A stretch of 24,000 nucleotides of DNA from Clostridium sp. KNHs214 (GTDB taxonomy: Bacteria > Bacillota > Clostridia > Clostridiales > Clostridiaceae), in contig NZ_JQMW01000004.1 in the NCBI RefSeq assembly GCF_000744935.1, forward strand, positions 86,869 through 110,868. The letters are read 5' to 3'. How positions within the stretch are numbered: the stretch's first letter is position 1; every line of letters starts with the position of its first letter. The notes under the pieces were generated by a model that made no database searches, was not told the DNA's origin, and saw only the letters and a program-made list of their open reading frames with translations. The position numbers were made by a program, and so were the translations under genes. Of the stretch, positions 3,973-23,568 are shown in pieces.

Positions 3973-3996
3973 CTTAAATTATTTCATAATCATTAT

Positions 3997-4087
3997 TAGC
4001 ACACATAAACTTCCAGTTTATGTCACGACCCCTAGGGTACTGCCAGAAAAAGGTTGTAGCAGAGCGAAAAACTTTTTCTGGGTTCTA
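3997..4087 (+). mobile_element. MITE copy 2 (full length, with flanking TA..TA)
   Basis: TA|GCACACATAAACTTCCAGTTTATGTCACGACCCCTAGGGTACTGCCAGAAAAAGGTTGTAGCAGAGCGAAAAACTTTTTCTGGGTTC|TA. Confidence 0.8.
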
Positions 4088-4249
4088 ATTATTCTTTGAA
4101 ATATTATAGGTCATCAGCCGAATACACTTAGCCTTCTTAAAATCTTCTACCACTTCTTTATAATTAACAAAGTCTCTACCTACAACAATTTCCCCGCCTT
4201 AATACGGTATATTCATTTTCATAAAATAACATTATCCTTCTTTTAAAAA

Positions 4250-4879: not shown

Positions 4880-5062
4880 TTATCTTCCTTTTATGTATTT
4901 TCCGCTTTTAATTCTCTGATCATCCGGCTTCTCCGCATCGTCAGGAATGGCCCAATATGAGCCAACTTTCATCGCTCCTGGAATACGATCCTCCGAACAT
5001 AATACCTGGATCCTTCTAACGGAGATGCCCCACTTTTCAGATGTCTGTTTTATTGATAGCAA
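4880..5062 (-). CDS. Small MerR/excisionase-type HTH DNA-binding protein, native start split off by MITE copy 3
   Basis: LSIKQTSEKWGISVRRIQVLCSEDRIPGAMKVGSYWAIPDDAEKPDDQRIKSGKY matches small HTH proteins common in Firmicutes mobile DNA. The track start is a TTG inside the MITE (5062-5060). The original ATG AAA G lies at 5154-5148, on the other side of the MITE. Confidence 0.7.
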   Translation of the reverse strand: MLSIKQTSEKWGISVRRIQVLCSEDRIPGAMKVGSYWAIPDDAEKPDDQRIKSGKYIKGR

Positions 5063-5147
5063 ACATAAACTTCCAGTTTATGTCACGACCCCTGGGGTTG
5101 TTCCAGAAAAAGGCTGAAGTGAAACGGAAGACTTTTTCTGGTTTCTA
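5057..5147 (+). mobile_element. MITE copy 3 (full length, TA..TA)
   Basis: TA|GCAAACATAAACTTCCAGTTTATGTCACGACCCCTGGGGTTGTTCCAGAAAAAGGCTGAAGTGAAACGGAAGACTTTTTCTGGTTTC|TA. Deleting it plus one TA restores ATG AAA GTA TCA ATA AAA CAG... Confidence 0.85.
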
Positions 5148-5177
5148 CTTTCATTTATAAAATTTATGTTTCATTAA

Positions 5178-6107
5178 TTATTTATCATTTACTATAAGCT
5201 TCATATCCATAAGCTCAAGCCCCTTTAAAAATCCCAAATTATGATATACATTTTCAGCTTCATTTTCCACATCTACATATAACCTAAGTACTGGATACTC
5301 TTCCTTTAAAACTGATAATGCTTTTTTTAGCATTTTAGTTCCAAGCCCTCTGCCTGCATAGCTTGGCTTAACAGCTACTTCCCATACTAGCGGCCATTCC
5401 TGCCATAAAGATATTAAGCAAACTCCTACTAATTCTTTAGTTTTCTCATCATATATAAGTGTAGAAGCTTTATTTAAAATTTCTATATGATAATTATCTT
5501 TAAAATAATCTTCAATCCACGAAGCACGCTCTTCTACACTATATGTGGAATTTGATCCTACATCATTTTGAAATGCTTCAAATATTAATTGTGCAACTTC
5601 TAATTTGTTCTGTTCTTTAGGCAAAATAATATTAAAATCACCTTCCCAAATGACGTTAAACTCTTCAGTTGGTCTTATCATCCAGCAACCACTCTCGACT
5701 TTTACAAAACCTATTTTTTCATATATATCTATCTGTGATGGATTAACTACAGATGCTTCTATATCTTTATTTACATCTGACCAATAAACTAAAATCTCTT
5801 TTAGTTTTTTTAATAATTCATATTCATCTGAATAAGGTGGGATAACAAATAATTCACCTATAAGGTTTGGTTCTATAAGAACTCCACCAACTTTAAGCCC
5901 ATCTTTCATTATCCAAAAATAATCATCATCTTTACAAACTGTAGAACGCATAATATCAAAGCTCTTCTTAAACCATCCATTAGCCTTTTGTAACCCATGA
6001 TAAACTGCATGATATTTAGAAAACTCTATGTAATCTACTCTTTCTAATACAAACCCATCACCTAAATCATATTTTATTGTTTCTTTTGACCATTTTTCAA
6101 AATTCAT
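5178..6107 (-). CDS. GNAT-family N-acetyltransferase, two-lobed (309 aa)
   Basis: C-terminal acetyl-CoA motif VAVKPSYAGRGLGTKMLKKAL...NVYHNLGF. The N-terminal half has a second GNAT-like beta-alpha pattern. RBS GGGGGGAAAG lies upstream. Confidence 0.8.
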   Translation of the reverse strand: MNFEKWSKETIKYDLGDGFVLERVDYIEFSKYHAVYHGLQKANGWFKKSFDIMRSTVCKDDDYFWIMKDGLKVGGVLIEPNLIGELFVIPPYSDEYELLKKLKEILVYWSDVNKDIEASVVNPSQIDIYEKIGFVKVESGCWMIRPTEEFNVIWEGDFNIILPKEQNKLEVAQLIFEAFQNDVGSNSTYSVEERASWIEDYFKDNYHIEILNKASTLIYDEKTKELVGVCLISLWQEWPLVWEVAVKPSYAGRGLGTKMLKKALSVLKEEYPVLRLYVDVENEAENVYHNLGFLKGLELMDMKLIVNDK

Positions 6108-6242: not shown

Positions 6243-6818
6243 CTATAAATTATTAGAAAAATATACATCTGTAATTGATTTTCCTTTATAATCCTTAGGT
6301 AAAATATCCATATACACTTCATCAAAAGCCTTTCCACCTATAAAATGAGATTCACGCCTTCTTCCAAATTCCTTGAAACCAACTTTTTTATACATTTGTA
6401 TTGCTTTATTATTATGAGAATAAACAACTACCATCACATTATGTAGGTTTAATATGTTAAAGCAATAATCTACAATAAGCTGCATTGCTTCAACACCATA
6501 CCCTTTACATCTGAAATTCTCATCACCTATTAAAATAGCTAATTCCGTTGACCTATCTACAGAGCATACTTCTTTAAGCCAACAAAATCCAATTAACTTA
6601 TCTTCTTTTAAATCAACTATTGAAAAATGATTACCTTGGCTACTATAATGTTTTCCAAAAAATTCTTTAGTTCTTTCTATAGAATAATTGCCTGCTGCAT
6701 CTCCAAGCCCAATAGCTGTATTCATGTCTGTAAACCATTCTGCAAATTTTTCATGATCATCATAAACCATTTGTGCCAAATAACACTTTTCACCGATTAA
6801 TTTTTTTAAATATTTCAT
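6243..6818 (-). CDS. GNAT-family N-acetyltransferase, RimJ/RimL-like (191 aa)
   Basis: ELAILIGDENFRCKGYGVEAMQLIVDYCF...NNKAIQMYKKVGFKEFGRRRES is the typical RimJ/L-type GNAT core. Confidence 0.85.
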   Translation of the reverse strand: MKYLKKLIGEKCYLAQMVYDDHEKFAEWFTDMNTAIGLGDAAGNYSIERTKEFFGKHYSSQGNHFSIVDLKEDKLIGFCWLKEVCSVDRSTELAILIGDENFRCKGYGVEAMQLIVDYCFNILNLHNVMVVVYSHNNKAIQMYKKVGFKEFGRRRESHFIGGKAFDEVYMDILPKDYKGKSITDVYFSNNL

Positions 6819-6942: not shown

Positions 6943-6991
6943 AAAATAAAAAAACCTTACTTTCAAATTTTTATGTATCTAACAGTAAGGT
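6943..6991 (-). terminator. Possible terminator (large loop)
   Basis: Minus-strand ACCUUACU-N22-AGUAAGGU followed by UUUUUUUAUUUU. The 22-nt loop weakens the call. Confidence 0.35.
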
Positions 6992-7005
6992 GTTGGTATT
7001 AAATT

Positions 7006-7044
7006 TAGCAAACATGAACTTCCAGTTTATGTCACGACCCCTGG
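7006..7044 (+). mobile_element. MITE copy 4, left part (interrupted by the IS)
   Basis: TA|GCAAACATGAACTTCCAGTTTATGTCACGACCCCTGG, then the IS inverted repeat begins at 7045. Confidence 0.8.
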
Positions 7045-8657
7045 CAGGTTGTGCGAAAATCCATAATTTATGGTATAATTTAATATATAAGTATTAAATT
7101 TCTATTAAGGGGTTGTTGCAATGAATTATATTTATGGTGATGATAGAAAACAAACAAAAATTGAAATAATGGAAGACTATGTTGATAACGATAGTGAAGT
7201 AAGAATTATTGATAAAATAATTGATGTTATGGATATAGAAAGTATGGGTTTCAAAGTTGGAAATAACGATGAAGTGGGACGACCTAAATTCAATCCAAAA
7301 GATTTATTGAAATTATACGTTTATGGATATTTTTACGGAATAAGATCATCACGTAAATTAGCAAAGCAATGCCTTATTAATAGGGAAGTTATTTGGTTAA
7401 TTAAAGGTATCAAACCTAAGTATAGAGTTATTGCAGATTTTAGAAAAGAAAATGTTGAAGCTCTTGAAAATATTTTTAAAAAATTTTTTAATTACTGTAT
7501 TGAGCTGGGCTTATATGGTAAAGAACTAATTGTTATAGATGGTACTAAAGTAGAGGCTTCCGCATCTAAGAGAAAAAATTACAGCCTAAATAAGCTATCT
7601 AAAATGAAGGAAATAACCCAAAATAAAATTGAAGAATATATGCATGCAATAGAAATTAATGATAATTTAGATGAGAATAAAAATAAAGATTTTGATAAAG
7701 AAGCCATAGAGTCTGCTATAAAAACATTAGAAGAAAAATTGGAATACTACAAACAATTAGATACTCAAATAATATTAAACGATGAAACTGAGATTAATTT
7801 TACAGATCCTGATGCTAAAACAGTAAAATTTGGAGCTAATCAAGGTACTGATTTGGGATATAATGTTCAAGTAGCAGTAGATGCTAAAAATAAACTTATA
7901 GCTGCTTATGATGTTATTAATAATTCAGCAGATCAAGGTCAGTTGTTTAATATGAGTGAAAAAGCTAAAGAAGCTCTTGATGTAGATTCTATAGAAGTTC
8001 TTGCAGATAAGTGATACTTTCATACAGAAGATTTTATTAAATGCGCTGAAGGAAATATTGTAGCTTATGTGTCTAAACCAACGTATTCTAATGGCATAGG
8101 AAATCCAACATATTATACTGATAAATTCAAATATTTAAAAGAAGAAGATGCATATATTTGTCCTGACGGACAAACTTTACATTGTATTACCAAAAAAATT
8201 AATGCTAAAAAGAAAAGATATTGTAATTATGATGCATGTAGTAAATGCAAAAACAAATCTAAATGCACAAATTCATCTAAAGGAAGAACAATAACAAGAG
8301 GCGAAAATGAAAATATTACAGAAGCGGTTAACGAAAGAGTTAAGGAGAATAAATCAAAATGTATGCTTCGCCAAACAATTGTTGAACATCCTTTTGGAAC
8401 ATTAAAAAGGACAATGGGTTTTTACTACTTACTTTTGAGAGGTTTCAAAAAAGTGAGGGGTGAGATTAGTCTTGCCATTTTTACCTATAATTTAAAAAGA
8501 GTAATAAATATTCTAGGAGTTGAAAGGCTCCTAGGAGCCCTTCTTGCTAATATTTATATACATTTTATGAGAAAGAACAAAAAGATTACTATAGTCCCTT
8601 AAAAAAGGAAATAAAGTTTCCAAGTAATCTTTTTATAGTTAATTTACGCACAACCTG
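7045..8657 (+). mobile_element. IS1182-family insertion sequence (1613 bp)
   Basis: Terminal inverted repeats CAGGTTGTGCGAAAAT (7045-7060) and, reverse-complemented, CAGGTTGTGCGTAAAT (8657-8642), 15/16 identical. 4-bp direct repeat CTGG at 7041-7044 and 8658-8661. Confidence 0.85.
7121..8602 (+). pseudogene. IS1182-family DDE transposase with an in-frame TGA
   Basis: N-terminal ...GRPKFNPKDLLKLYVYGYFYGIRSSRKLAKQC...IADFRKEN... is typical of IS1182/IS5-like transposases. Track ORFs 7121-8014 and 8069-8602 share one frame. The TGA at 8012-8014 sits where relatives have Gly in the conserved ADKGY motif (here LADK*YF). Confidence 0.8.
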
Positions 8658-8711
8658 CTGGGTACTACCAAAAAAAGTTGTAGCGGAGCGGAAAACTTCT
8701 TTTGGTTGCTA
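8658..8711 (+). mobile_element. MITE copy 4, right part
   Basis: CTGGGTACTACCAAAAAAAGTTGTAGCGGAGCGGAAAACTTCTTTTGGTTGC|TA. Joining it to 7006-7044 after removing one CTGG gives a full-length copy. Confidence 0.8.
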
Positions 8712-8725
8712 CCGCCAATCCAACA

Positions 8726-8823: not shown

Positions 8824-11298
8824 TTATTTCAAGCAACTATTCTTTTGACTATACTCTGTTTCGATAAATAAAGTTAATAATTCTCTTTGTTCTGGATTTA
8901 AAGTCGCATTATCACGTATCCACATATGTAATGCTTTTCCTATTGCATATGATAATTCTTTCTGTTGAACCTCTCCAATATTGCTTCTTGATACATTAGG
9001 AACAAATTCTGAATTCGTAATATTTACAATAGCCTCTTTTAAAGAAATTCCATCCACGAGATTCGGAATTTTTAATTTTAATCCTGAAAGCAATACATCT
9101 TTTAAATAGCATCGATCTGTATAAATCCAATTGTATTTGCCAATAACCCTACAATCCTTATTATATGGTAATACTATTCGGCTTCCATTGTTTATTACAT
9201 CCTGAACAATAGTAGAAATCTTTACTGGAGTATTTTCACCATGCCCAAACTGATCTCGAAAACCACCTAATGTATATCCTCCAACAATTTTATCACTTGA
9301 CATATCTACCCAAAGGTCGCCATAATCTATTTCTTCTTTCTTTCCCCAAACATTAATCGAATTATAATTTCCAATTTTATTAAGAGCTTCATCATAATCT
9401 TCTAGTACTTCATATGCCTTAAGGAAATCATATTCATCACAATCAGAAATAATCGGAATATTTAATAATCGAATTTTAGCATCTTCAACACAATCTTTAA
9501 TTAATAAGCACTCTTCATCATCCAAAGAGTACTTTTCATTATTATAATAATAACTTTCACATCCATTAATATCCCTTAATTGACCGGCAAAATTAATTTG
9601 CTTATAATTACAATCAATATAAGCCTCTACTCCATTCAAGTACTCATTCAAACATATATTTTGAGTAAAAGTATTTTCTACTCTTTTTAATTTGCACTCA
9701 AGTTCAGTAGCTTCCCCATTCTCCACCATTGAAAGCTTAATTGGAATCCCTGAATAAAGAAAATTGTTTTCAATAAATGATACTATATGCTCTATCTTAT
9801 TATCAAAAACACTTAGACATTGATCATAATCCAATATAATTTCTGTTCCTTGTGGCCTATGTGCATCCTCATACGTCAAACAAATATATTCACTATTTCT
9901 TTCAAATGAAATTCTATTCATTTTATAATCTTCATAATAAACAGTTTTTACCTCAACTTTATCAGATAACATAAAACAAGCTAAAAACCCTATTCCATAG
10001 TGCCCAATCGGAGAATATTTTCTTCCCTGCAGTAAATATTCATCAGATACATAATAAGATACGCCTACATTTAAAAAATATTTTTTTAAGATATTTATAG
10101 ACATGCCACTTCCATTATCCATAATAGTTACTTGTTTTCTATCCTTATCTAGCGTTATAGAAATAAATGGCTGATATTTTTGATATCGAAAATCCTCCAT
10201 TCGCCTCGATGTTTCTTCCATTGTTTTACATGCATCAATTGAATTCTGAATCAGCTCCCTAAGCCCAAATTTTTTATCTCCATAAATATGCTCACCCATC
10301 AATAAATTTGTTACTGCATTATAATCCAGTGATAATCTTAAATCCGAAAAACTAAATCCATTTGTCTGTATTTTATTAATCACATTTGTCTTTAGCACCA
10401 ACAAATACTTTTCACTGGCGTATTTTTCACATAAACTCACTGCATTTTTCAATTCTCCATTAATAGAATCAAAATATTTTAATAATTTTCTATGAACCGT
10501 GGGATTCTGACTAGAACCTTGAAAAATAAGTTCCTTTAATCCAGTGCGTTCATTTAAAAAAACTTTATCATAATTTTCTATAACAAAATGCTGTTTCCAT
10601 TCAAGATCACTATATTCTGTTGGCGCTAAATATTTGTATAAATACAATGGCGCTCGTTGTTCATCAATGTCCAAATAATCTGCAATTCTCAACAATACTG
10701 CAATGTACTGTGAATTCAAAGCATATCTACCTTTTGTTGATTCATAGGATAGATTCTTCTCTATCCATTCAAAATCTTCATTATGCGACATACATATCAA
10801 ACTAATTTCTATTCTGAAAGATATAATTGTTGATTCTGGAATCAAGAACAATTTCTCATCCATATTTTTTTCTATATATTCTTTAGCACGTCTCCCATGT
10901 ATTGGTCTAATACATTCCTGTAAGGCAATCTTTTCTTCTCCAAATTTTTCTAATACTTTGCTATACTTTCTCTCTCCTAAAATTGAATTATCATTTTTAA
11001 TGTCTCTTATTTCATCATTATTTGTTACCATTCCAATATCATGTAATAAAGCGCTATATATTAATGAAATCACCTCTAATTCACTTAATTGATCTATATC
11101 TGATATTAGATTATACATATATTCCATTACATCTATAGAATGTCTAATCCCATGAACTGTATAATTCGTAAAAACATTATTAATTAATGGCAATACATCA
11201 TTTGCATATTTAATAACTTCGTTGAGTTGTGTTAAAAATTTACTATCTTTTTTTCTTAACCACTCATATAGATGTGTCTCTTGTACTTTTTCTATCAA
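8824..11298 (-). CDS. 824-aa protein: N-terminal HD phosphohydrolase domain + Hsp90-like GHKL ATPase domain + ~350-aa uncharacterised C-terminal region
   Basis: HD motifs: H49/H53 (VHGIRHS), H86-D87 (ALLHDIGM), PIHGR, RIADYLD. Bergerat-fold motifs: E348..N352..D355 (LRELIQNSIDA), D394-G398 (MDNGSGM), G435-G437 (GHYGIGFLACF). An RBS-like GGGGGAGG lies upstream of the ATG. Confidence 0.85.
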   Translation of the reverse strand: MIEKVQETHLYEWLRKKDSKFLTQLNEVIKYANDVLPLINNVFTNYTVHGIRHSIDVMEYMYNLISDIDQLSELEVISLIYSALLHDIGMVTNNDEIRDIKNDNSILGERKYSKVLEKFGEEKIALQECIRPIHGRRAKEYIEKNMDEKLFLIPESTIISFRIEISLICMSHNEDFEWIEKNLSYESTKGRYALNSQYIAVLLRIADYLDIDEQRAPLYLYKYLAPTEYSDLEWKQHFVIENYDKVFLNERTGLKELIFQGSSQNPTVHRKLLKYFDSINGELKNAVSLCEKYASEKYLLVLKTNVINKIQTNGFSFSDLRLSLDYNAVTNLLMGEHIYGDKKFGLRELIQNSIDACKTMEETSRRMEDFRYQKYQPFISITLDKDRKQVTIMDNGSGMSINILKKYFLNVGVSYYVSDEYLLQGRKYSPIGHYGIGFLACFMLSDKVEVKTVYYEDYKMNRISFERNSEYICLTYEDAHRPQGTEIILDYDQCLSVFDNKIEHIVSFIENNFLYSGIPIKLSMVENGEATELECKLKRVENTFTQNICLNEYLNGVEAYIDCNYKQINFAGQLRDINGCESYYYNNEKYSLDDEECLLIKDCVEDAKIRLLNIPIISDCDEYDFLKAYEVLEDYDEALNKIGNYNSINVWGKKEEIDYGDLWVDMSSDKIVGGYTLGGFRDQFGHGENTPVKISTIVQDVINNGSRIVLPYNKDCRVIGKYNWIYTDRCYLKDVLLSGLKLKIPNLVDGISLKEAIVNITNSEFVPNVSRSNIGEVQQKELSYAIGKALHMWIRDNATLNPEQRELLTLFIETEYSQKNSCLK

Positions 11299-11316
11299 AA
11301 AACCTCCCCCTTTATT

Positions 11317-11826
11317 CTATATAGCAAACTTATTTTTTAATTCTTCATCAGTTTCTATTTTTTCACCAACCCACGGTTGCAAAAAATATTTGATATGTGG
11401 ATTCACCATGTCTACCATATGATTTTGTCCAGCTGGCGTAATTACAAAATAATGTTGCAATTCAATAATCAAACCATTATTCATCGGTAACTCTAACGTA
11501 TGTGTGCTCTCCCTCAAAAAAGCCTTTATAATCATAACTTTCTCCTGATTCATATTCTTTAAATATTTAATTTGTCCTTCAGAAACTTTCTTTGCAACTT
11601 TTTTATCATGGAAATGGTGATACACTTTTGACATCAAAAGTACAACTAATATTGCTAATGAAACAACAAATACTACCCCGATTACAAAACCATACCGATT
11701 ACGAAACTCCAACATATACAACTTTTTTATAATACGATTAGGCAAAAAAAGCAAAAAACCACTTGCTATTGCTAATGCCCCTAATATATTTGGTGGTAAT
11801 TTCAAAAACTCTATAAAATCCTTCAT
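11317..11826 (-). CDS. 169-aa two-TM membrane protein, SieB-like (superinfection-exclusion B family resemblance)
   Basis: Two N-terminal hydrophobic helices (ILGALAIASGFLLFLP and YGFVIGVVFVVSLAILVVLLM) followed by a soluble tail. The layout and the LKLP...LLFLP...F...YG..IG pattern recall SieB-family proteins from memory. The stop is 18 nt upstream of the HD-GHKL start. Confidence 0.75.
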   Translation of the reverse strand: MKDFIEFLKLPPNILGALAIASGFLLFLPNRIIKKLYMLEFRNRYGFVIGVVFVVSLAILVVLLMSKVYHHFHDKKVAKKVSEGQIKYLKNMNQEKVMIIKAFLRESTHTLELPMNNGLIIELQHYFVITPAGQNHMVDMVNPHIKYFLQPWVGEKIETDEELKNKFAI

Positions 11827-11910: not shown

Positions 11911-12099
11911 TCAAAACTTAGTTTTTGTATCCCCACACTCTATATCGACCACTACCGAAACATTGATATAATCCTTAATCTCCTTATTCCGCATTTTCTC
12001 ACCCCAATCAGTAAACACAATATACTTGTGAAAGTGCCTGAAATTAAGGATTTCTATATATCTTTCTGCACTCCCCACATAAACCCTGACGAATAGCAA
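11911..12099 (-). CDS. Hypothetical 62-codon ORF reading out of MITE copy 5 (doubtful)
   Basis: The frame opens at the TTG inside the MITE. The sequence is paralogous to 19000-19175, where the same frame is broken by a stop. It may therefore be non-coding. Confidence 0.3.
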   Translation of the reverse strand: MLFVRVYVGSAERYIEILNFRHFHKYIVFTDWGEKMRNKEIKDYINVSVVVDIECGDTKTKF

Positions 12100-12184
12100 A
12101 CATAAACTTCCAGTTTATGTAACAATCCCCGGGGCACTTCCAGAAAAAGGTTATAACGGAGCGAAAAACTTTTTCTGGTTGCTA
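12094..12184 (+). mobile_element. MITE copy 5 (full length, TA..TA)
   Basis: TA|GCAAACATAAACTTCCAGTTTATGTAACAATCCCCGGGGCACTTCCAGAAAAAGGTTATAACGGAGCGAAAAACTTTTTCTGGTTGC|TA. Confidence 0.85.
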
Positions 12185-12251
12185 TCTTCTCCCTTTATTT
12201 ATTTTTTAGCCCTATCGCATTAAATAATATAAAATTCTATTTAACCACCTA

Positions 12252-15200
12252 TTATTTAATGCATCTGATACGTTTTTTAAAATATGTTGGATATTCGTCC
12301 AGCAATTGTTTTACCTTATCAGTCTTTGATTTTATGTATTTTATTATTTCATCTTCTTTTATCAATTTATTTCCTAGTTTATTTGATAGTACTGTTGCTA
12401 GATATCGGTCATTAAAAATTTTTTCACAAATTGATATACTAGTTTGTGAATCAACACCATATTTAATTTTTTTCTGAAGCATCATTAAGCGACTGAGATT
12501 CGTGCTTTCTGAATTTAAAAAATCCATAATATTACCAATTAGAAAATTAAGTTTATACGAAATGTAGTGGCAACATATTTTTTCGACATCCATCATAGTC
12601 TTATCATATGCTTGGCTCATTTCTACGCATGACATACCATGAATCCAATCTTGACACAAATTTGCTGTAATTAAATCCGCTTCATATATTTCATTATATA
12701 ATCCAACTGTCATCTCTATTAATTGCTCTTCTGAGTATGTTTCGTTATTAACATCATATTCTTCAATCCAGCTCTTTACATTTTTTGCAATATCCCTTGG
12801 AAGTATTGCCGCTGAATATTGTTTAATATCTTTTCTATTATTATAAATATCCTCTACTATCGTATAAATAATCATAGATAGGCGTTTTTCCTCTTCTTCT
12901 GTTGCCAAATACATTGCCAAGGTGTTTTGAAATGCTCTAGCTGCCTCTTCCTGCATCTCATTGTAATCATCTAGTATATTATTTTTACAAAGCACATAAC
13001 TTATTTCACTCTCTATGATACCTATTATGCTTTTATAATTTTGAACTTTACTTGTAATATTTCGCCGGTATTGATCTTGGTTTACATCAGGATACCGTTC
13101 TTTAATATCCATCATCAATTCTTCTACAAGAGTATATTCCCATTTTTCACAAAAATTATCACATATATATTTCGTAACAAATTCACCATATACCGTAAGT
13201 TGATAATTTCCTTTAAAGTCTTGGACTACACTTAAAATTGCACTTCCACACGCCTCAGCGTTTTGTGAATCAAATAAATCTGTTGCCTCTTTCCATTCAT
13301 AAAAGCCTCTACCATTCCTTTTATTATCAAAAAGTTTCGAATCTGTAACTATAATACTTCCTTCCGTATAAACACCTGACCTTGCTGTTCTTCCCATCAA
13401 ATTCTGAAAGCTTCTAGTTGTCATCATTTTCTGAGCAGACTTCATACTTGTCATTATTAAATACTTAATAGGAATATTAACTCCCTGAGCCAAAGTTGAT
13501 GTACACGCTATAATTTTTAATTTTTCTTTTCGAAATGCGTATTCAATAGCTATACGTAATCCATTTGGCAAATAAGAATAATGCGGTAATATGCCTATTT
13601 CACATGCTTTAGTATACACATAATCATCACCATAGTACGCTTGAATAAGGTTTTTCAATTTATCTAGTTCATCCATGTCTGCTGATTGTTTTATATTACT
13701 CAAATCATAACTTCTATCCTCTAGTTCAACAACCCGATCTAGTATTTTAGGAATAGATCTTCTTTGATTTAAATATACTGCTATACCACCGTTTTTACAT
13801 AATAAATTCGAATAATATATTGCAACATCTTGTGGTTTGCTCAACTCAGGAAATACTTTCTCTTTTCTTTCCCGTTTTTTCATGCTAAGTTTCGTTATAT
13901 TAATTGCTCTTGGTATATAAAAATCTTCTTCTGAAAAAGAATCTGAATAGTAATGAATTTCTTTTGTTTTTGATGTAAACCCAATTACTTTAGGAGTACT
14001 TCTAATATTTTTGTCATAAGCCAGTATTCCATCTTCTCCAAATGCCCAATGACATATCTTATCAGCATTTGAAAGAACTGCAGACATTAAAACCATTTGA
14101 TGAGTAATTTGTAGATTCGTTGTAATATCTGAAACTAATAATTCATACAATGCCCCTCTACTTTCATCATCAAACATATGACCTTCATCAAAAATATAAA
14201 GATTAATTTCATTTATATAATCTGGTTGATGATGAAATATATATTGCAATTTTTCTGGAGTACATACAAAGATTTTATGCCTTTTTTTATTTTCAAATAG
14301 ACTTTCAAAATCAAATTCTAATACATCCGAAAACTGATTAATTATAACATCTTTCAGAAATGCTCTATGCATATCATCTGTTATCTCGTTACAAAGAGCT
14401 CTTAACGGTGCAACAATTAAGGCAGTATCCCCTCTTTCGGCCAAGAACATTGATCTAATTATTAATTCTATACTTTTTGTTTTTCCAACCCCTGTAGGCA
14501 ATTGAACAACTGCATTCTTCCCTCTTAATATTCCACTTTCCCCAATAAGTTTTTGAGATGGCCATATCAACTTTATTGCATTTTTCTGATTAAAATAAAC
14601 TTTCCATTTTTCTTCTTCTACAGCTGAATATTTCGGAAGAAGTTTTCTCGCAGAATATCCTAGCATAATTCTTAAAACTGCACACAAAACTTCTGAGAAG
14701 AACAAATCCAATGGGCTTCCTTTAATATCCATTTGTTTCTTATACTCATCTGCCTCTTGAAGAACTTGCTCTTCTGTTCCTGTTTGTAAATAATTTTTTA
14801 CTAAATTTAAAAGAGTACTCTCAAAAGATTGTTTTCTTCGACCTGTAAAAAGTAAGTTGAATACTTCAACCAAAATCCCCCTTGTATCATTCTGAATTTG
14901 TTTATCATTTACAGCTTCTGATAGTACTTTTGCACTTCCAAAATCGTCTAAAAAGAAATATGCAGCCGCACCAGAAATCAAGAAATCTTGATCATGTTCT
15001 TCCTGTTCCCTAGCTTTGACAGCTGCATCATAATATTCCGAACAATAATGTAATCTTTCTTTTATTTTGTATTGAGTATCCTTGTCATTATTTATAATTG
15101 CTTCTGCATATTCTGACAATGTTAACACTGTTGGAAAAACCAAATCTCTATAATTTAGTGGAAATTTAGGATGACTATCTTCAGGTATATTATATTCCAA

Positions 15201-15257
15201 AAGTTTCACTTTTGCTTTTTGGTATTTTAACATATATTCAGATCTTCTAGAACTCAC
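12252..15257 (-). CDS. hamB: Hachiman HamB, SF2 DEAD/DEAH-type helicase (1001 aa)
   Basis: Walker A QLPTGVGKTK (G256-T260), motif II IFDEGH (357-360), SAV, QGVNIP, and motif VI QNLMGRTARSG. The GTG start overlaps the hamA stop (GTGA). Confidence 0.8.
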   Translation of the reverse strand: MSSRRSEYMLKYQKAKVKLLEYNIPEDSHPKFPLNYRDLVFPTVLTLSEYAEAIINNDKDTQYKIKERLHYCSEYYDAAVKAREQEEHDQDFLISGAAAYFFLDDFGSAKVLSEAVNDKQIQNDTRGILVEVFNLLFTGRRKQSFESTLLNLVKNYLQTGTEEQVLQEADEYKKQMDIKGSPLDLFFSEVLCAVLRIMLGYSARKLLPKYSAVEEEKWKVYFNQKNAIKLIWPSQKLIGESGILRGKNAVVQLPTGVGKTKSIELIIRSMFLAERGDTALIVAPLRALCNEITDDMHRAFLKDVIINQFSDVLEFDFESLFENKKRHKIFVCTPEKLQYIFHHQPDYINEINLYIFDEGHMFDDESRGALYELLVSDITTNLQITHQMVLMSAVLSNADKICHWAFGEDGILAYDKNIRSTPKVIGFTSKTKEIHYYSDSFSEEDFYIPRAINITKLSMKKRERKEKVFPELSKPQDVAIYYSNLLCKNGGIAVYLNQRRSIPKILDRVVELEDRSYDLSNIKQSADMDELDKLKNLIQAYYGDDYVYTKACEIGILPHYSYLPNGLRIAIEYAFRKEKLKIIACTSTLAQGVNIPIKYLIMTSMKSAQKMMTTRSFQNLMGRTARSGVYTEGSIIVTDSKLFDNKRNGRGFYEWKEATDLFDSQNAEACGSAILSVVQDFKGNYQLTVYGEFVTKYICDNFCEKWEYTLVEELMMDIKERYPDVNQDQYRRNITSKVQNYKSIIGIIESEISYVLCKNNILDDYNEMQEEAARAFQNTLAMYLATEEEEKRLSMIIYTIVEDIYNNRKDIKQYSAAILPRDIAKNVKSWIEEYDVNNETYSEEQLIEMTVGLYNEIYEADLITANLCQDWIHGMSCVEMSQAYDKTMMDVEKICCHYISYKLNFLIGNIMDFLNSESTNLSRLMMLQKKIKYGVDSQTSISICEKIFNDRYLATVLSNKLGNKLIKEDEIIKYIKSKTDKVKQLLDEYPTYFKKRIRCIK

Positions 15258-16090
15258 TTTTTACACCTCTCGTAAACCTCATGTGCTAAATCCATTAATT
15301 TTCTACCATGTACATAGAATACTGCTGTTCCTGTTTTTATTTGCAGTTTATCCCCTTCAATATTAGGAATAACTTTCATTGTTTTCTCGTTAACCTTTTT
15401 TTCAGGAATATTATCCAAACTAGATATTCCTGCTCCAATATATCTAAGCTTATAATTATACCCCTCCTTTGTTTTCTTCTGAAAACGCAAAACATCTTCT
15501 GCCACATTAGTCTTACCCATCATTTTTAATTTCTTTCGCATATAATTAAGCGTTATTGAAACTCGATACTCATCTTTTACAGAATCTAAAACTGCATCTT
15601 CAATTGGATTTGTACTCTTTGATGTCAATTGAGCCTTTACCTCCACTGCCATCAACTTATCTTTTTCACTTGGGCTTTTATCTAAATTATGGAATTTAAA
15701 ACCTATAATGTCCGTTCCATGCTCTGACAAAGTTTTTCCTGACATATTATACTGTCTACATCTTGGAACTTCATAATTATAGACAAACTCCAGTAAATCA
15801 GAAAATAATATCTCACTAATAGTATTTGACCTTGCTGTTCCACCCATTGGATCCGTTTTTTGTGGAATAATATATTTTCTCAAATAATCCTCTACTGGCA
15901 GATTTAACTCTTCACTATCTTCTTCTAGTTCCTCATCTGAAATATAATGTCTTCTTAAATGAAGTGCCCAATCATCAAGTATTGATTCTTCCTCATCATA
16001 ATCTATTTCATAACAGAATAAAGATTTCCCATTATCAAAAATAACATCTTTTTCTTTTGTAAGCCATTTTAGATACTCAGGTTGCATCAT
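15254..16090 (-). CDS. hamA: Hachiman HamA (DUF1837, PD-(D/E)xK-like)
   Basis: 278 aa, directly upstream of and translationally coupled to a large SF2 helicase. Core GGTARSNTISEILFSDLLEF...HGTDIIGF (D127)...LMAVEVKAQ (E150, K152) fits DUF1837. Confidence 0.75.
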   Translation of the reverse strand: MMQPEYLKWLTKEKDVIFDNGKSLFCYEIDYDEEESILDDWALHLRRHYISDEELEEDSEELNLPVEDYLRKYIIPQKTDPMGGTARSNTISEILFSDLLEFVYNYEVPRCRQYNMSGKTLSEHGTDIIGFKFHNLDKSPSEKDKLMAVEVKAQLTSKSTNPIEDAVLDSVKDEYRVSITLNYMRKKLKMMGKTNVAEDVLRFQKKTKEGYNYKLRYIGAGISSLDNIPEKKVNEKTMKVIPNIEGDKLQIKTGTAVFYVHGRKLMDLAHEVYERCKK

Positions 16091-16313: not shown

Positions 16314-17201
16314 TTAATTACTTACTTTTCTCTTTGAATTAGCAAGATATGTATTCCGAGAAAATGGTCCTTTATACGCCTCTTCATCTAAAAATCCAAG
16401 AATAATTTTTACCTGTTCCTTATCATTTGGAATAACAACCTTTTCATCTTTTATATTCACAATTATTCCAGATTCATAAGCCAAATCCTTAATTTCATTT
16501 GCAGAATAATTTTCAAGTACCTTAGAATCGTTAATCATAGCAATTTTTCTTCTATTCCATGTATTTGCCATTCCTTTAAAATTATCTACATTTTCTAAAC
16601 TCAGCTTGTCTGATCCTGCAAAACATTCAACCTCTTGATCTGTTGCCGAACGATAATAGTCACCCAAGTCAAACACCTGCCTTGCAAAGAAAAAAGAAGA
16701 AAACTGTAATTCGCCTTCTGTATAAAAGCAATCAATATTATCAGATATACTAATTCCAAAATTTTTTTCTCTATGAAATGTGTCGTCAGTAAAAAACAGG
16801 TTAAACCATGATGTAGATATATATTGCTCTTTACGAAAACGTTGAAATGCCACTTTAAATTTTTCTGTATCATCTGCCTCTGTTCTTTTTCCAAGAAACA
16901 CAGCCTTTATCTCAAGGAAATTCCCATCTTTCTTTTCATAAACCGTTACTCCTAATGGATCTCTTATTGCATCCTTAATTTTGTCTGCCAGTTGAAAATT
17001 TTCAACAGCCAAGAATTCATCCCTGTGAGGTTTGTAACTTCCATCAAATTTAATCCTTGTTTTGTCAGTAATCAAATCACCTAATGCAGTTTCAAATGCA
17101 CTGCAAATATCTTTTTGCGTATCCGCATCAACATCAAGTCGATATATTTCATTTGCATGGGCGCCAGCAGCAATAATCATTACAGAACAATCCTCAAACA
17201 T
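16314..17201 (-). CDS. kwaB: Kiwa KwaB-like protein (DUF4868)
   Basis: 295-aa soluble protein 4 nt downstream of a 4-TM partner. Size, gene order and the C-terminal ...ILGFLDEEAYKGPFSRNTYLANSKRK pattern fit my memory of DUF4868/KwaB. Confidence 0.65.
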   Translation of the reverse strand: MFEDCSVMIIAAGAHANEIYRLDVDADTQKDICSAFETALGDLITDKTRIKFDGSYKPHRDEFLAVENFQLADKIKDAIRDPLGVTVYEKKDGNFLEIKAVFLGKRTEADDTEKFKVAFQRFRKEQYISTSWFNLFFTDDTFHREKNFGISISDNIDCFYTEGELQFSSFFFARQVFDLGDYYRSATDQEVECFAGSDKLSLENVDNFKGMANTWNRRKIAMINDSKVLENYSANEIKDLAYESGIIVNIKDEKVVIPNDKEQVKIILGFLDEEAYKGPFSRNTYLANSKRKVSN

Positions 17202-17205
17202 ATTA

Positions 17206-17730
17206 TCATCTCCCTGTATCTAAAAGTAAAAAATCAAAAATACGGTTTACAGTCCCTAGATCTTTTGACCTTCTCAATTTTCTCTTACTTATTACTGTAT
17301 ATCCAGACATACCATGTTCACCACTTACTTGGTAAAAGTGATACTGTTTTACCCATAAAAGTGGGTTTGGAATTGATGTATTAACATAGGGTGCTACAAC
17401 AGCAAGTATTACACCTAATATTGCACATATTGTCACATCAAAGTCTTTAATTGCCATACTTGCAAATGGTAATGCATAACTTAACACATACAAAACTACC
17501 CACCCATCATATGGAGAAATATCATTTGTTCTTATTATTATTGGAGCGATGTGTGTTTTTCCATAAGAAAAAGAAACTGAAAACAACACAATGAGTACAA
17601 TTCCAACTGCAATACTAATAAGTGGAACTTTTAATGTTTCCTTTTGCAAATACCAAACCAAAGCAAAGATAAAACTAAGTGGTGCTACTGTAGAAACATT
17701 ATAAATAAATTTCTGTACAATATTTCCCAT
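17206..17730 (-). CDS. kwaA: Kiwa KwaA-like membrane protein
   Basis: 174 aa with four predicted TM helices and a basic cytoplasmic tail. RBS GAGGTGAG lies 5 nt upstream. Immediately precedes the KwaB-like gene. Confidence 0.6.
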   Translation of the reverse strand: MGNIVQKFIYNVSTVAPLSFIFALVWYLQKETLKVPLISIAVGIVLIVLFSVSFSYGKTHIAPIIIRTNDISPYDGWVVLYVLSYALPFASMAIKDFDVTICAILGVILAVVAPYVNTSIPNPLLWVKQYHFYQVSGEHGMSGYTVISKRKLRRSKDLGTVNRIFDFLLLDTGR

Positions 17731-17748: not shown

Positions 17749-18057
17749 TCAAATAATGCTCGTTTTATTTCTTGTTTTTACCACATTCACCCACTTCTTC
17801 TCAAATGAATTAGAACCACCAACATCAAAATATTTTTCAAAGAATACTTTCAGTTTATCCATAACCCTCTATTTTTTCTCTGCCCTACCACCACTGCCAA
17901 ATCTAGAAACAGGTGACATAATCTTCTCAATATCTGTTCCGACTGTCTTAATCTCTCCATCTCGGAATGCATTCTCAATAAACTTTCTAGTGTCCGCTGG
18001 TTTTAGCTTTTCCTCTGTGATAATGGCTTGGAGTTCCTTTTCACGCTGATTTAGCAA
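17749..18057 (-). pseudogene. hsdR: C-terminal remnant of a type I restriction R subunit (HsdR, EcoR124-like C-terminus) with an in-frame TAG
   Basis: ...EEKLKPADTRKFIENAFRDGEIKTVGTDIEKIMSPVSRFGSGGRAEKK*RVMDKLKVFFEKYFDVGG... matches the conserved HsdR C-terminal tail. TAG at 17871-17869 falls where relatives have Gln. No helicase or nuclease part lies upstream. Confidence 0.7.
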
Positions 18058-18142
18058 ACATAAACTTCCAGTTCATGTAACGACCCTAGGGGTACTGCAA
18101 AAAAAAGGTTGCAGCAGAGCAAAAAACTTTTTTGGGTTTCTA
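18052..18142 (+). mobile_element. MITE copy 6 (full length, TA..TA)
   Basis: TA|GCAAACATAAACTTCCAGTTCATGTAACGACCCTAGGGGTACTGCAAAAAAAAGGTTGCAGCAGAGCAAAAAACTTTTTTGGGTTTC|TA. Confidence 0.85.
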
Positions 18143-18158
18143 TAAAACAACTCAGATT

Positions 18159-18732
18159 CTAGTTCAATTTGAATTCTAAAAGCCTTATAACACGCTTTAA
18201 TCTGTTCTTCATTATATCTCTAAATTCTAAAACTTCCTCTTCTTTTATCTCTATAACTTTTTCAATTAATTCATTCCAATAATCATCACGATTAAATTCG
18301 TAAGTATCAATGAATAATTTATTATATTTATTTTCTCTCTGCATATCCTTTTCACAGATTTCTTGCTTTTTATCTTCACGCAATGTATTAGATATCTTCC
18401 ATCTGCTAATAAACCGTTCTTTACCTTGAGTCATATTCTCAACAGCATGTTTCACTGCAAGTCTAGCTAAAACGCTCTCAGCAAATTTGCCTCTTTTATA
18501 ATTAGCATAAGCTTCATTTTCTTTACTTTTTTTATTAAAGTACTCGAATCCTTTTTTTATTTCTGGAGCAATACTTGCTTCCAAAATTGTAAATGCAGTT
18601 GATACTCCTTGAACAAATTGTGCCTGCTGCAATAACAGAACTAGCTAATATTGCTGTTCTATCTAAATTTTCATTCTTCCCGTTAATATATTTAATTAAT
18701 TGTTTTAATGTTTCCTCTTTATATGTGCTCAT
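18159..18732 (-). pseudogene. Unknown ~190-aa gene, apparently frameshifted
   Basis: Track ORFs 18535-18732 (MSTYKEETLKQL...LASSVIAAG) and 18159-18632 (QAQFVQGVSTAFTILEAS...) overlap in frames offset by 1 nt around GCAGCAGGCACAA. Joined, they give one continuous plausible protein. Confidence 0.5.
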
Positions 18733-19759: not shown

Positions 19760-20269
19760 TTATACTTCTTCATCTCCAAGTAGCAGTTCTTTAAGCCATT
19801 TAGGTAGTTTACTAACCTTTTTAAATTCTAAGATTTTATCAGCGATTTCTTTAGCGTCTTCTTTCCTCCAAAATCTATCTTTAATGTAACAGTCTCTACA
19901 GCAATACTTAAGGTGCTTAATACCTAAAGACTTAAATTCTTTTCCACAGTAGGAACATTTTAAATTAAAAGCTTTACGATGAGTTTTGTCCCACTTCCTT
20001 TTACATTCCATGGAACAGTATTTCCTCTTTCTCCCCTTGGCATTCTGCTTTATTTCTTTACCACATTGAGGACAGAATATATATATAAATTCTTCCTGCA
20101 TCAATATCTTTCGCTTTAAGGCTAGTTCTTCACCAAAGCCATCTAGTCCATGTCTCCTGCAATAACCTCTTACAGAATCTCTTGATAGTCCTATTTGATC
20201 TGATATCTTTTTATATCCTATCCCCTCTAGCCTCAATTGTCTGATTTTTTCTTTTTGCTCATTAGTCAC
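19760..20269 (-). CDS. DNA-binding protein: N-terminal sigma-70 region-4/resolvase-type HTH plus two CxxC zinc ribbons
   Basis: EKIRQLRLEGIGYKKISDQIGLSRDSVRGYCRRHG is the HTH. It is followed by CPQC..CSMEC and CSYC..CCRDC. Proteins like this accompany serine-recombinase elements in Clostridia (from memory). Confidence 0.75.
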   Translation of the reverse strand: MTNEQKEKIRQLRLEGIGYKKISDQIGLSRDSVRGYCRRHGLDGFGEELALKRKILMQEEFIYIFCPQCGKEIKQNAKGRKRKYCSMECKRKWDKTHRKAFNLKCSYCGKEFKSLGIKHLKYCCRDCYIKDRFWRKEDAKEIADKILEFKKVSKLPKWLKELLLGDEEV

Positions 20270-23384: not shown

Positions 23385-23568
23385 AATAATCTCTCCCTCA
23401 CCATAGACTCGTATAAAAATATGCGTACATAATTCCACATGATCAATTTCAGTGAATTTATAACCATATTTTTTGCTTGAAGTTATTTGCTTATTTCCCC
23501 AAATCTCTTAAAAATGATTGCACTAAGCACCAAAAGTAATCAATAGTTTTTTATCTTTTTAAGACTAA

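What the first reader, a model, noticed from the sequence alone, without database searches (positions are those of the whole stretch)
8824..11826. Candidate undescribed two-gene defence module: SieB-like 2-TM protein + HD / Hsp90-like GHKL ATPase, bracketed by MITE copies next to Hachiman and Kiwa
Seen directly:
- A 169-aa protein with two N-terminal TM helices is followed 18 nt later, on the same strand, by an 824-aa protein.
- That protein combines a complete HD metal-dependent phosphohydrolase motif set (H49, H53, H86-D87, RIADYLD) with a complete Bergerat ATP-binding fold (E348/N352/D355, DNGSGM at 394-399, GIGF at 435-438).
- Both domains are followed by ~350 aa with no motif I recognise.
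- The module is delimited by MITE copies 4 and 5 and lies immediately beside two bona fide anti-phage systems.

Established knowledge: defence genes cluster in islands. HD nucleases/phosphohydrolases and GHKL/MORC-type ATPases recur in conflict systems. SieB-type membrane proteins mediate superinfection exclusion or abortive infection.

Inference: this is an ATP-regulated HD effector working with, or triggering, a membrane partner. I do not recognise this architecture as any named system. A relationship to GHKL-containing systems such as Tiamat or paraMORC should be tested rather than assumed.
Basis: partly seen in the sequence, partly recalled or inferred. Interest (0 to 1): 0.85.

Follow-up and report, generated by a model that had tools for sequence, protein, structure and literature searches.

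The report
HD-CE–HSP90 defence gene beside SieB-like gene
Two real neighbouring genes in a Clostridium anti-phage island, a small SieB-family membrane protein and a large HD phosphohydrolase fused to an HSP90-like ATPase, are almost never found together elsewhere, so they are best read as two separate defence candidates, and the large one belongs to a class already predicted by computation but not yet tested.

Summary
The sequence observation holds. A 169-aa two-TM protein (11317-11826, minus strand) lies 18 nt upstream of an 824-aa protein (8824-11298). Hachiman, Kiwa and PD-T4-1 lie next door.

The "undescribed two-gene module" reading does not hold.
- The 824-aa protein matches Pfam PF24391 HD-CE ("conflict effector", E 3e-50) followed by an HSP90-class ATPase.
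- The "unrecognised" C-terminal ~300-350 aa is HSP90-like. The AlphaFold model (pLDDT 86) aligns over more than 500 columns with full-length HSP90, GRP94, TRAP1 and HtpG.
- This HD-CE + HSP90 architecture is, from my memory of the abstract, the class predicted by Nicastro et al. 2023. That paper is not held in the library.
- None of 41 homologue loci, including 67-78% identical ones, has a SieB-like gene beside it.
- None of 69 SieB-like loci has an HD-HSP90 gene within the 5-8 kb of flank fetched.
- Each gene sits tightly against many unrelated defence, restriction or mobile-element genes.

Most likely these are two independent single-gene defence candidates, co-transcribed by chance adjacency. 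Neither matches PADLOC v2. No phage phenotype is known to me. This is a new member of a known (predicted) kind, of moderate interest.

The parts
11317..11826 (-). SieB-family two-TM protein, 169 aa. A stand-alone membrane exclusion / abortive-infection candidate.
   Evidence: ORF. Pfam PF14163 SieB scores 126 bits against a cut-off of 26, covering 2-146 of 147 model positions. Hydrophobic segments at ~10-29 and ~45-66. NCBI names it 'superinfection exclusion B family protein'. No PADLOC, PHROG or phage-genome hit.
11299..11316 (-). 18-nt intergenic spacer carrying the Shine-Dalgarno sequence (GGGGGAGG) for the TTG start of the large gene. There is no room for a promoter or terminator, so the two genes are co-transcribed here.
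   Evidence: Sequence read. No terminator-like site between the genes.
8824..11298 (-). HD-CE-HSP90 fusion protein, 824 aa (whole gene including stop).
   Evidence: ORF. Identical to an NCBI protein of Clostridium sp. KNHs214. 809 clusters at 50% identity match with E<1e-30.
10444..11172 (-). HD-CE phosphohydrolase domain (aa 43-285), the predicted effector.
   Evidence: Pfam PF24391 E 2.8e-50, covering 1-263 of 263 model positions. Weak PDEase_I hit (3e-4) over aa 49-94. H86, D87 and D207 invariant; H49 and H53 at least 90% conserved. The H-x3-H...HD pattern aligns with cyclic-nucleotide phosphodiesterases, but only weakly (E~0.3).
9727..10302 (-). HSP90-class Bergerat ATP-binding N-domain (aa 333-524).
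   Evidence: NCBIfam HtpG E 2.2e-25 over model positions 15-206. PDB HtpG N-domain E 5e-17, and all 60 best PDB sequence hits are HSP90 family. E348, N352, D355, the DNGxGM motif and the GIGF motif are invariant.
8827..9726 (-). HSP90-like middle and C-terminal region (aa 525-824), ending in two long helices (776-797, 802-815) that may form a dimerisation bundle.
   Evidence: AF2 model with pLDDT 86.3. The 50 Foldseek PDB hits listed are all HSP90 family (mostly full-length, some NTD-middle fragments) with 507-556 aligned columns. No sequence-level PDB or Pfam match. The dimerisation role is inferred.
12076..12211 (+). Intergenic structured repeat copy, upstream of the SieB-like gene and downstream of hamB.
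8658..8725 (+). Right half of a repeat copy lying just after the stop of the 824-aa gene. The copy is split by an IS; its left half is at 6988-7044.
   Evidence: Alignment. Sequence. TSD CTGG at 7041-7044 and 8658-8661.
7045..8657 (+). IS element (DUF772 + DDE_Tnp_1_6 transposase in two ORFs, terminal inverted repeat CAGGTTGTGCG) inserted into the repeat copy. Not part of the defence genes.

Best explanation
The interval holds two independent single-gene defence candidates. They happen to be adjacent and co-transcribed in a Clostridium defence island.

(1) The 824-aa protein is a self-contained sensor-effector.
- It has an N-terminal HD-CE metal-dependent phosphohydrolase fused to a complete HSP90-like ATPase (N-domain, middle region, C-terminal helices).
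- Inferred mechanism: the HSP90-like part works as an ATP-driven dimeric clamp or switch, as a STAND NTPase does in other immune proteins.
- It is proposed to bind an infection cue, most likely a phage protern 'client' or misfolded protein load.
- Through N-terminal closure it would release or activate the HD-CE domain.
- The HD-CE domain would then hydrolyse free nucleotides, stopping phage replication and probably host growth (abortive infection).

(2) The 169-aa SieB-family protein is a separate two-TM membrane protein acting on its own. It may work as an exclusion or abortive-infection factor at the membrane.

Shown here: the domain identities, motif conservation, HSP90-like fold, lack of a conserved partnership, and variable defence or mobile-element neighbourhoods.

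Inferred: the cue, the substrate, the activation step and any anti-phage phenotype.
For: Domains:
- HD-CE E 3e-50 and HATPase_c_3.
- HtpG N-domain E 2e-25 and 5e-17 against PDB.
- AF2 pLDDT 86. Foldseek's listed top 50 are all HSP90 family over 507-556 columns.
- Catalytic residues of both domains are invariant or nearly so in 110 homologues.

Independence, from the HD-HSP90 side:
- No SieB-like ORF was found anywhere in the sequence fetched for 39 genome loci plus L005 and L006. No two-TM ORF sits upstream.
- No SieB-like gene appears in the called genes of L048 (78% identical homologue) or L049 (76% identical homologue).

Independence, from the SieB side:
- 0 of 69 SieB-like loci carry HD-HSP90.
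- The SieB-like gene is instead packed at -4 to +54 nt against ArdA, SNF2 helicase/DUF4391, HNH, HsdR, YgjP, Abi_C, Schlafen, or RcaT-like + RT.

Other:
- 'CE' means 'conflict effector', and Calcineurin-CE, named in the same paper (ref. 8 of PMC12871103), is now shown to deplete dNTPs (PMC12871103).
- GHKL-effector fusions can be single-protein defences: VcSduA needs both its ATPase and its nuclease residues (PMC12137116).
Against: - The 18-nt spacing with a shared transcript is what a true operon looks like.
- No repeat copy separates the two genes, whereas repeats separate some other cassettes.
- No experiment exists for either gene.
- Neither gene is in PADLOC v2.
- Only 2 of 10 sampled large neighbours of homologues hit PADLOC, and no background comparison could be run. 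Defence-island enrichment is therefore suggestive, not measured.
- The HD-CE substrate is unknown. An HD nuclease role is possible.
- The Nicastro 2023 paper could not be read here. Its statement about HSP90 modules is from my memory of the abstract.
Confidence: 0.62

Rival explanations
1. The SieB-like membrane protein and the HD-HSP90 protein form one dedicated two-gene system, with the ATP-regulated HD enzyme working with or triggering the membrane partner.
For: Same strand, 18-nt gap, and a Shine-Dalgarno sequence directly after the SieB stop codon. Both genes lie between the same two repeat copies. The pair is kept in four other assemblies, all 100% identical, so these are the same organism.
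Against: - 0 of 41 HD-HSP90 loci have a SieB-like or any two-TM upstream gene, including 67-78% identical homologues.
- 0 of 69 SieB-like loci have HD-HSP90, including 69-73% identical homologues.
- Kiwa and Hachiman also share one inter-repeat interval, so the repeats do not mark functional units.
Confidence: 0.08
2. SieB-like two-TM proteins are portable accessory modules that plug into many different cytoplasmic defence enzymes. Here the accessory has been newly recruited to HD-HSP90, for example as a membrane sensor or a second effector. There would be a real functional link in this genome despite no conserved pairing.
For: The SieB-like gene is always packed very tightly against a neighbour: -4 nt to DUF4391 and 10 nt after an SNF2 helicase in 16 loci, -4 nt after Schlafen, 3 nt after YgjP, 18-20 nt from HsdR, HNH and Abi_C, and 25 nt before an RcaT-like gene. 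In the SNF2/DUF4391 operon it sits between two genes of one system.
Against: About half of the loci place it before the anti-restriction gene ardA on Tn916-like elements. That fits a cargo gene better than a system component. One 73% identical homologue has no adjacent gene within about 300 nt on either side. Tight packing is common in defence islands.
Confidence: 0.15
3. The 824-aa protein is a single-protein defence, but its HD domain is a nuclease acting on DNA or RNA (as in Cas3 or Cas10 HD domains) rather than a nucleotide-pool hydrolase.
For: HD domains include nucleases. GHKL modules often act on DNA (MutL, MORC, topoisomerases, VcSduA). Some homologues sit next to SMC/ABC ATPases that usually act on DNA.
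Against: - The best profile is HD-CE, a family defined as nucleotide-targeting.
- The only other HD-type similarities are to cyclic-nucleotide phosphodiesterases and small-molecule HD hydrolases.
- The ATPase is HSP90-class, a protein-binding clamp. No MutL, MORC or topoisomerase appears among the 60 PDB sequence matches or 50 Foldseek hits listed.
Confidence: 0.15
4. The 824-aa protein has a housekeeping or stress role, such as a specialised chaperone or signalling phosphodiesterase, and its position in the island is incidental.
For: Sources annotate some homologues as 'molecular chaperone HtpG/HSP90'. Some neighbours of homologues are ordinary genes such as ribosomal protein S2, transporters and capsule genes.
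Against: - It scores far below the HtpG equivalog cut-off: 89 bits against 371.
- Distribution is patchy, contexts vary, and several copies are decayed or split (L036, L042, L045, L046).
- It lies on ICE-like and plasmid DNA and among RM or defence genes.
- No conserved housekeeping neighbourhood was found.
Confidence: 0.05

Closest known systems
HSP90-module conflict systems with HD-CE effectors (Nicastro, Burroughs, Iyer, Aravind, Nucleic Acids Res 2023, 51:11479; Pfam PF24391 HD-CE)
   Same: N-terminal HD-CE domain at full model coverage. Fused HSP90-class ATPase with HSP90-like downstream domains. Variable defence and mobile-element neighbourhoods.
   Different: Nothing found that departs from the class as I recall it. 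The paper could not be read here, so a clade-level match is untested. The class is a computational prediction. I found no experimental test in the library.
PUA-Calcineurin-CE-HAD (PMC12871103)
   Same: It uses a 'conflict effector' phosphoesterase named in the same 2023 study. That effector is shown to deplete dNTPs and cause abortive infection after a sensor domain binds a cue.
   Different: A different effector fold (calcineurin-like, not HD), a different sensor (PUA binding m6-dAMP, not HSP90), and a required HAD partner.
VcSduA / Shedu type I-D, formerly paraMORC3 (PMC12137116)
   Same: A single protein with a GHKL ATPase fused to an effector. Both the ATPase and the effector residues are required for defence. 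A clamp-like middle domain is predicted.
   Different: Its effector is a C-terminal DUF4263 PD-(D/E)xK nuclease, not an N-terminal HD domain. Its GHKL is MORC-type, not HSP90-type.
Tiamat (TmtA)
   Same: A large single protein with a sacsin/HSP90-like GHKL ATPase.
   Different: No TmtA model in PADLOC matches the 824-aa protein. TmtA's C-terminal NOV_C domain is absent here. In this window that domain belongs to the PD-T4-1 gene at 22140-23438.
HtpG / HSP90 chaperones
   Same: The Bergerat N-domain motifs (LRELIxNxxDA, DNGxGM, GxGF) and an overall N-domain plus middle-domain fold.
   Different: Only 13-16% identity. It scores 89 bits against the 371-bit equivalog cut-off. It carries an extra 320-aa HD-CE domain. 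The middle and C-terminal regions are not detectable by sequence.
SieB family (Pfam PF14163; phage lambda/P22 superinfection exclusion B)
   Same: Full-length match to the family model. A small protein with two N-terminal TM helices.
   Different: It is not in a prophage here. No match in 50,697 phage genomes, in IMG/VR or in PHROGs. No exclusion phenotype has been tested. Its relatives are cargo of ICEs and restriction/defence operons in Clostridia.

Membership tests
Pfam HD-CE (PF24391) | Profile match above the curated cut-off over the whole domain | tested here: met
   171.9 bits against a cut-off of 27, covering 1-263 of 263 model positions, aa 43-285. The same domain is precomputed for nearly all full-length homologues listed.
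Pfam HD-CE (PF24391) | HD metal-binding residues (H...HD...D) conserved | tested here: met
   H86, D87 and D207 invariant; H49 and H53 at least 90% conserved in 110 sequences.
Pfam HD-CE (PF24391) | Hydrolyses free nucleotides | not testable with these tools
   Needs purified protein and nucleotide assays.
HSP90 family (GHKL class) | HSP90-type Bergerat N-domain | tested here: met
   NCBIfam HtpG E 2.2e-25. PDB HtpG E 5e-17, and all 60 best PDB hits are HSP90 family. ATP-binding motifs invariant.
HSP90 family (GHKL class) | Middle domain (and C-terminal dimerisation domain) following the N-domain | tested here: inconclusive
   Foldseek aligns 507-556 columns with full-length HSP90s and with N-domain + middle-domain fragments, TM 0.49-0.50 on the fragments. 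The aligned coordinates were not returned, and there is no sequence-level match. The C-terminal dimerisation role of helices 776-815 is inferred.
HSP90 family (GHKL class) | Orthology to HtpG (equivalog score) | tested here: not met
   89.2 bits against a cut-off of 371.
HSP90-coupled conflict systems (Nicastro et al. 2023) | A nucleotide-targeting CE effector fused or linked to an HSP90-related module | tested here: met
   HD-CE and the HSP90-like module are in one polypeptide. The definition of the class is recalled from the abstract, not read here.
HSP90-coupled conflict systems (Nicastro et al. 2023) | Protects against phage or other mobile elements | not testable with these tools
   No experiment found in the library.
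Dedicated two-gene system (SieB-like + HD-HSP90) | The two genes co-occur and are adjacent across homologues | tested here: not met
   0 of 41 HD-HSP90 loci and 0 of 69 SieB-like loci.
SieB family (PF14163) | Profile match above the cut-off, and two N-terminal TM helices | tested here: met
   126 bits against a cut-off of 26. Hydropathy peaks at ~10-29 and ~45-66.
SieB family (PF14163) | Prophage-encoded superinfection exclusion | tested here: not met
   No phage-genome, IMG/VR or PHROG match. The contexts are ICEs and restriction/defence operons. The phenotype itself is not testable here.
Tiamat (TmtA) | Match to TmtA profiles; C-terminal NOV_C/DUF3883 domain | tested here: not met
   No TmtA hit at E<=1 in PADLOC. 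No NOV_C domain in Pfam.
MORC / paraMORC | The GHKL domain is closest to MutL/MORC-type ATPases with an S5 transducer domain | tested here: not met
   All 60 PDB sequence matches listed and all 50 Foldseek matches listed are HSP90 family.
Shedu type I-D (GHKL + DUF4263) | DUF4263 PD-(D/E)xK nuclease domain | tested here: not met
   No such Pfam or PADLOC hit.

The most novel reading that the evidence does not exclude
SieB-family two-TM proteins of Clostridia may be portable membrane modules that are inserted, translationally coupled, into many unrelated defence and restriction operons. Partners seen include SNF2/DUF4391, HsdR, HNH, Schlafen, Abi_C, an RcaT-like retron toxin, and here HD-HSP90. 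On this reading the window shows a newly formed functional pair, in which the membrane protein senses or executes for the HSP90-gated HD effector.
Probability: 0.12. Interest if true: 0.65.

Novelty: new member of a known kind. Interest (0 to 1): 0.4.

Why it matters
- The HD-CE-HSP90 class is large. 809 clusters at 50% identity match at E<1e-30, across Clostridia, Bacilli, Desulfobacterota and Bacteroidota.
- It is absent from PADLOC v2 and, as far as I could find, untested.
- A chaperone-type ATPase used as an immune switch would add a new sensing principle beside STAND, ABC and GHKL/MORC switches. It would also echo the role of HSP90 in eukaryotic NLR immunity.
- This window offers a compact, well-conserved Clostridium representative with clear mutational targets.
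- The negative result also matters. It removes a false 'new two-gene system' from the list, and shows that tight spacing inside defence islands is not evidence of partnership.

Tried and rejected
- PADLOC v2 on both proteins gave only a weak REase_II hit (E 3e-4) on the GHKL core and nothing for the SieB-like protein.
- NCBIfam gave no equivalog-level hit.
- PHROGs gave only GHKL-core hits.
- Rfam on the whole window found nothing at gathering score.
- I tried to read Nicastro et al. 2023 and Burroughs et al. 2015. Neither is held.
- Literature searches for 'HD-CE' returned only unrelated medical abbreviations. Searches for an experimental HSP90-type defence found none.
- A viral-contig scan for SieB-like genes found none.
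- tblastn of the 824-aa protein found one full-length plasmid homologue (Bacillus mycoides, 34% identity). The only phage-collection hit was an HSP90 N-domain-type fragment.
- A SieB HMM built from close homologues was searched against all ORFs of the HD-HSP90 loci and hit only the window's own species.
- The sigma-70 promoter scan was no better than shuffled sequence, so no internal promoter can be claimed.
- PADLOC on 138 neighbours returns family counts only. The count is inflated by ABC ATPases that each match dozens of models, so I could not turn it into an enrichment figure.
- I considered Tiamat, paraMORC and Shedu I-D and rejected them on profile and domain grounds.
Full report
**Observation.**
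- The window comes from Clostridium sp. KNHs214. Both proteins are 100% identical to NCBI entries of that organism.
- On the minus strand, a 169-aa ORF (11826-11317, ATG) is followed after 18 nt by an 824-aa ORF (11298-8824, TTG).
- The spacer reads ...TAG AATAAAGGGGGAGGTTTT TTG. The second gene therefore has its own strong ribosome-binding site but no room for a promoter or terminator.
- The small protein has two hydrophobic segments, at about residues 10-29 and 45-66. It matches Pfam SieB over the full model (E 1.2e-36).
- The large protein matches Pfam HD-CE (aa 43-285, E 2.8e-50) and HATPase_c_3 (aa 346-467).
- The flanking genes are HamB and HamA (12252-16090), KwaB and KwaA (16314-17730), and a PD-T4-1 protein (22140-23438).
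- The sequence observation is confirmed.

**What the large protein is.**
- The ATPase is specifically HSP90-class. NCBIfam's best model is HtpG (E 2e-25, N-domain positions 15-206).
- The 60 best PDB sequence matches of the family profile are all HtpG, HSP90 or GRP94 N-domains (best 5e-17).
- An AlphaFold2 model from 110 homologues is confident (mean pLDDT 86.3, pTM 0.68).
- The 50 Foldseek hits listed against the PDB are all HSP90-family chains (mostly full-length, some NTD-middle fragments): GRP94, HtpG, HSP90, TRAP1, Hsc82. They align over 507-556 columns, with TM about 0.5 on N-domain + middle-domain fragments.
- The part of the query after the HD domain is only about 505 residues. The '~350 aa with no motif' is therefore the HSP90-like middle and C-terminal region. 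That region has no sequence-level match.
- The protein scores far below the HtpG equivalog threshold (89 against 371 bits). It is not the housekeeping chaperone.
- The HD domain's only other similarities are weak ones to cyclic-nucleotide phosphodiesterases and small-molecule HD hydrolases.

**Prior description.**
- 'CE' stands for 'conflict effector'. PMC12871103 spells this out for Calcineurin-CE and cites Nicastro, Burroughs, Iyer and Aravind, NAR 2023. The same reference appears.
- That paper is not in the library.
- From my own memory of its abstract, it names Calcineurin-CE, HD-CE and PRTase-CE as predicted nucleotide-degrading immune effectors. It also reports systems in which HSP90- and HSP70-related modules act as analogues of STAND and GTPase switches coupled to such effectors.
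- The architecture here fits that description, so it is not undescribed.
- I found no experimental test of an HD-CE-HSP90 protein. PADLOC v2 has no model for it.

**Is it a two-gene module?** I tested this from both sides.

*From the HD-HSP90 side.*
- I gathered 39 genome loci and four contigs of individual homologues, spanning 33-78% identity.
- An HMM of SieB-like proteins hit no ORF in the 39 genome loci or in L005 and L006. It hit only the window's own species.
- For L048 and L049, the precomputed Pfam annotation of the called genes shows no SieB.
- The upstream ORFs carry no pair of TM helices.
- The 78% identical homologue follows a type I R-M operon and precedes a helicase, GmrSD and an HNH protein.
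- The 76% identical homologue sits by GmrSD and an AAA_15/21 ATPase.
- One lies on an integrase/ParAB element in Desulfitobacterium. One lies on a Bacillus mycoides plasmid by a 'beta family / sce7726' pair.
- Clustering 138 flanking proteins shows no shared partner, with one exception. An ~810-aa LmuB-like ABC ATPase lies 46-49 nt upstream in a 45-47% identity clade.

*From the SieB side.*
- I gathered 63 metagenome loci and six further places. None contains an HD-HSP90 gene within the 5-8 kb of flank fetched (and the gene tables).
- About half of the loci put the gene just upstream of ardA on Tn916-like elements.
- In 16 loci it sits between an SNF2 helicase (10 nt) and a DUF4391 gene (4-nt overlap in most).
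- In other loci it follows HsdR, an HNH protein, a YgjP-like protein or a Schlafen protein, or precedes Abi_C or an RcaT-like (STM3845) gene with a reverse transcriptase.
- A 73% identical homologue has no adjacent gene within about 300 nt on either side.

*Conclusion.* The pairing in this window is a local juxtaposition. It is retained only in identical assemblies of the same organism.

**The repeats.**
- A ~95-125-nt element recurs at 3979-4114, 5039-5174, 12076-12211 and 18034-18169.
- A fifth copy is split by a 1613-bp IS (7045-8657, terminal repeat CAGGTTGTGCG, CTGG duplication) into halves at 6988-7044 and 8658-~8725.
- All copies point the same way as the genes. They fold into three hairpins closed by their ends, with modest support (z about -2). 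They match no Rfam family.
- 'MITE' is unproven.
- Kiwa and Hachiman, two separate systems, share one inter-repeat interval. The repeats therefore do not delimit functional units.

**Mechanism (inferred).**
- The HSP90-like module probably dimerises through its C-terminal helices and cycles between open and ATP-closed states.
- Binding of an infection-derived protein or misfolded load would shift that cycle and free or assemble the N-terminal HD-CE domains.
- Those domains would then hydrolyse nucleotides and arrest replication.
- Precedents support this. Calcineurin-CE has been shown to deplete dNTPs after sensor activation (PMC12871103). The GHKL-nuclease fusion VcSduA needs both its ATPase and its nuclease residues (PMC12137116).
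- The substrate, the cue and the phenotype are untested.
- The SieB-like protein most likely acts alone at the membrane.

**Verdict.**
- The genes and motifs are real and the locus is a defence island.
- The finding is not a new two-gene system.
- It is one more member of a computationally predicted, experimentally open class (HD-CE-HSP90), lying beside an unrelated SieB-family gene.
- Defence-island enrichment of the family is suggestive but not quantified. Only 2 of 10 sampled large neighbours hit PADLOC, and no background comparison could be run.

Noticed in passing
window 3979-4114, 5039-5174, 6988-7044 + 8658-8725, 12076-12211, 18034-18169 (weak copy at 1142-1198): A family of ~95-125-nt intergenic repeats separates the cassettes of the island. 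All copies have the same orientation as the genes. Each folds into three hairpins closed by pairing of its ends (z about -2). There is no Rfam match. It could be a MITE, a REP-like element, a terminator or RNA-stability element, or a recombination site. Its distribution in the rest of the genome was not checked.
   Followed up: partly
window 7045-8657: A 1613-bp IS with the transposase in two ORFs (DUF772, 7121-8014; DDE_Tnp_1_6, 8069-8602), 11-bp terminal inverted repeats and a CTGG target duplication. It is inserted precisely into one copy of the repeat. The same IS sits at the same place in other assemblies (L002, L004).
   Followed up: partly
L028 5517-7946, L029 832-3276, L033 5501-7945, L035 5504-7948 (also L037, contig edge): In a clade of HD-HSP90 homologues at 45-47% identity, an ~810-aa LmuB/PtuA-like SMC/ABC ATPase lies 46-49 nt upstream. 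This is the only recurrent partner seen and may be a real two-gene variant. Two further loci (L020, L041) have a different SMC_N protein adjacent.
   Followed up: partly
L084, L087-L099 (e.g. L088 1766-6169): SieB-like genes are embedded between an SNF2-type helicase (~1074 aa, 10-nt gap) and a DUF4391 gene (4-nt overlap in most) in 16 human-gut metagenome contigs. That is a stable three-gene arrangement, in which the membrane protein may be a true component.
   Followed up: partly
L120 73-2737: A 70% identical SieB-like gene lies 25 nt upstream of an STM3845 (RcaT-like) gene followed by a reverse transcriptase. This looks like a retron-Sen2-type system with an added membrane gene.
   Followed up: no
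L036, L042, L045, L046: Several HD-HSP90 homologues are split or truncated into two or three ORFs. Frequent decay is expected for costly defence genes.
   Followed up: no
window 18159-18632, 19760-20269, 20393-22054: Three further minus-strand ORFs lie between Kiwa and PD-T4-1 (157, 169 and 553 aa). None has a significant Pfam, PADLOC or NCBIfam match. The 169-aa one has a zinc-ribbon and HTH-like N-terminus. They may be further uncharacterised island cargo.
   Followed up: partly
window 5178-6107, 6243-6818: Two GNAT acetyltransferase genes lie just beyond the IS (Pfam annotation of the identical genes in L002). They have no PADLOC hit. They mark either the edge of the island or a different cassette type between repeat copies.
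   Followed up: no
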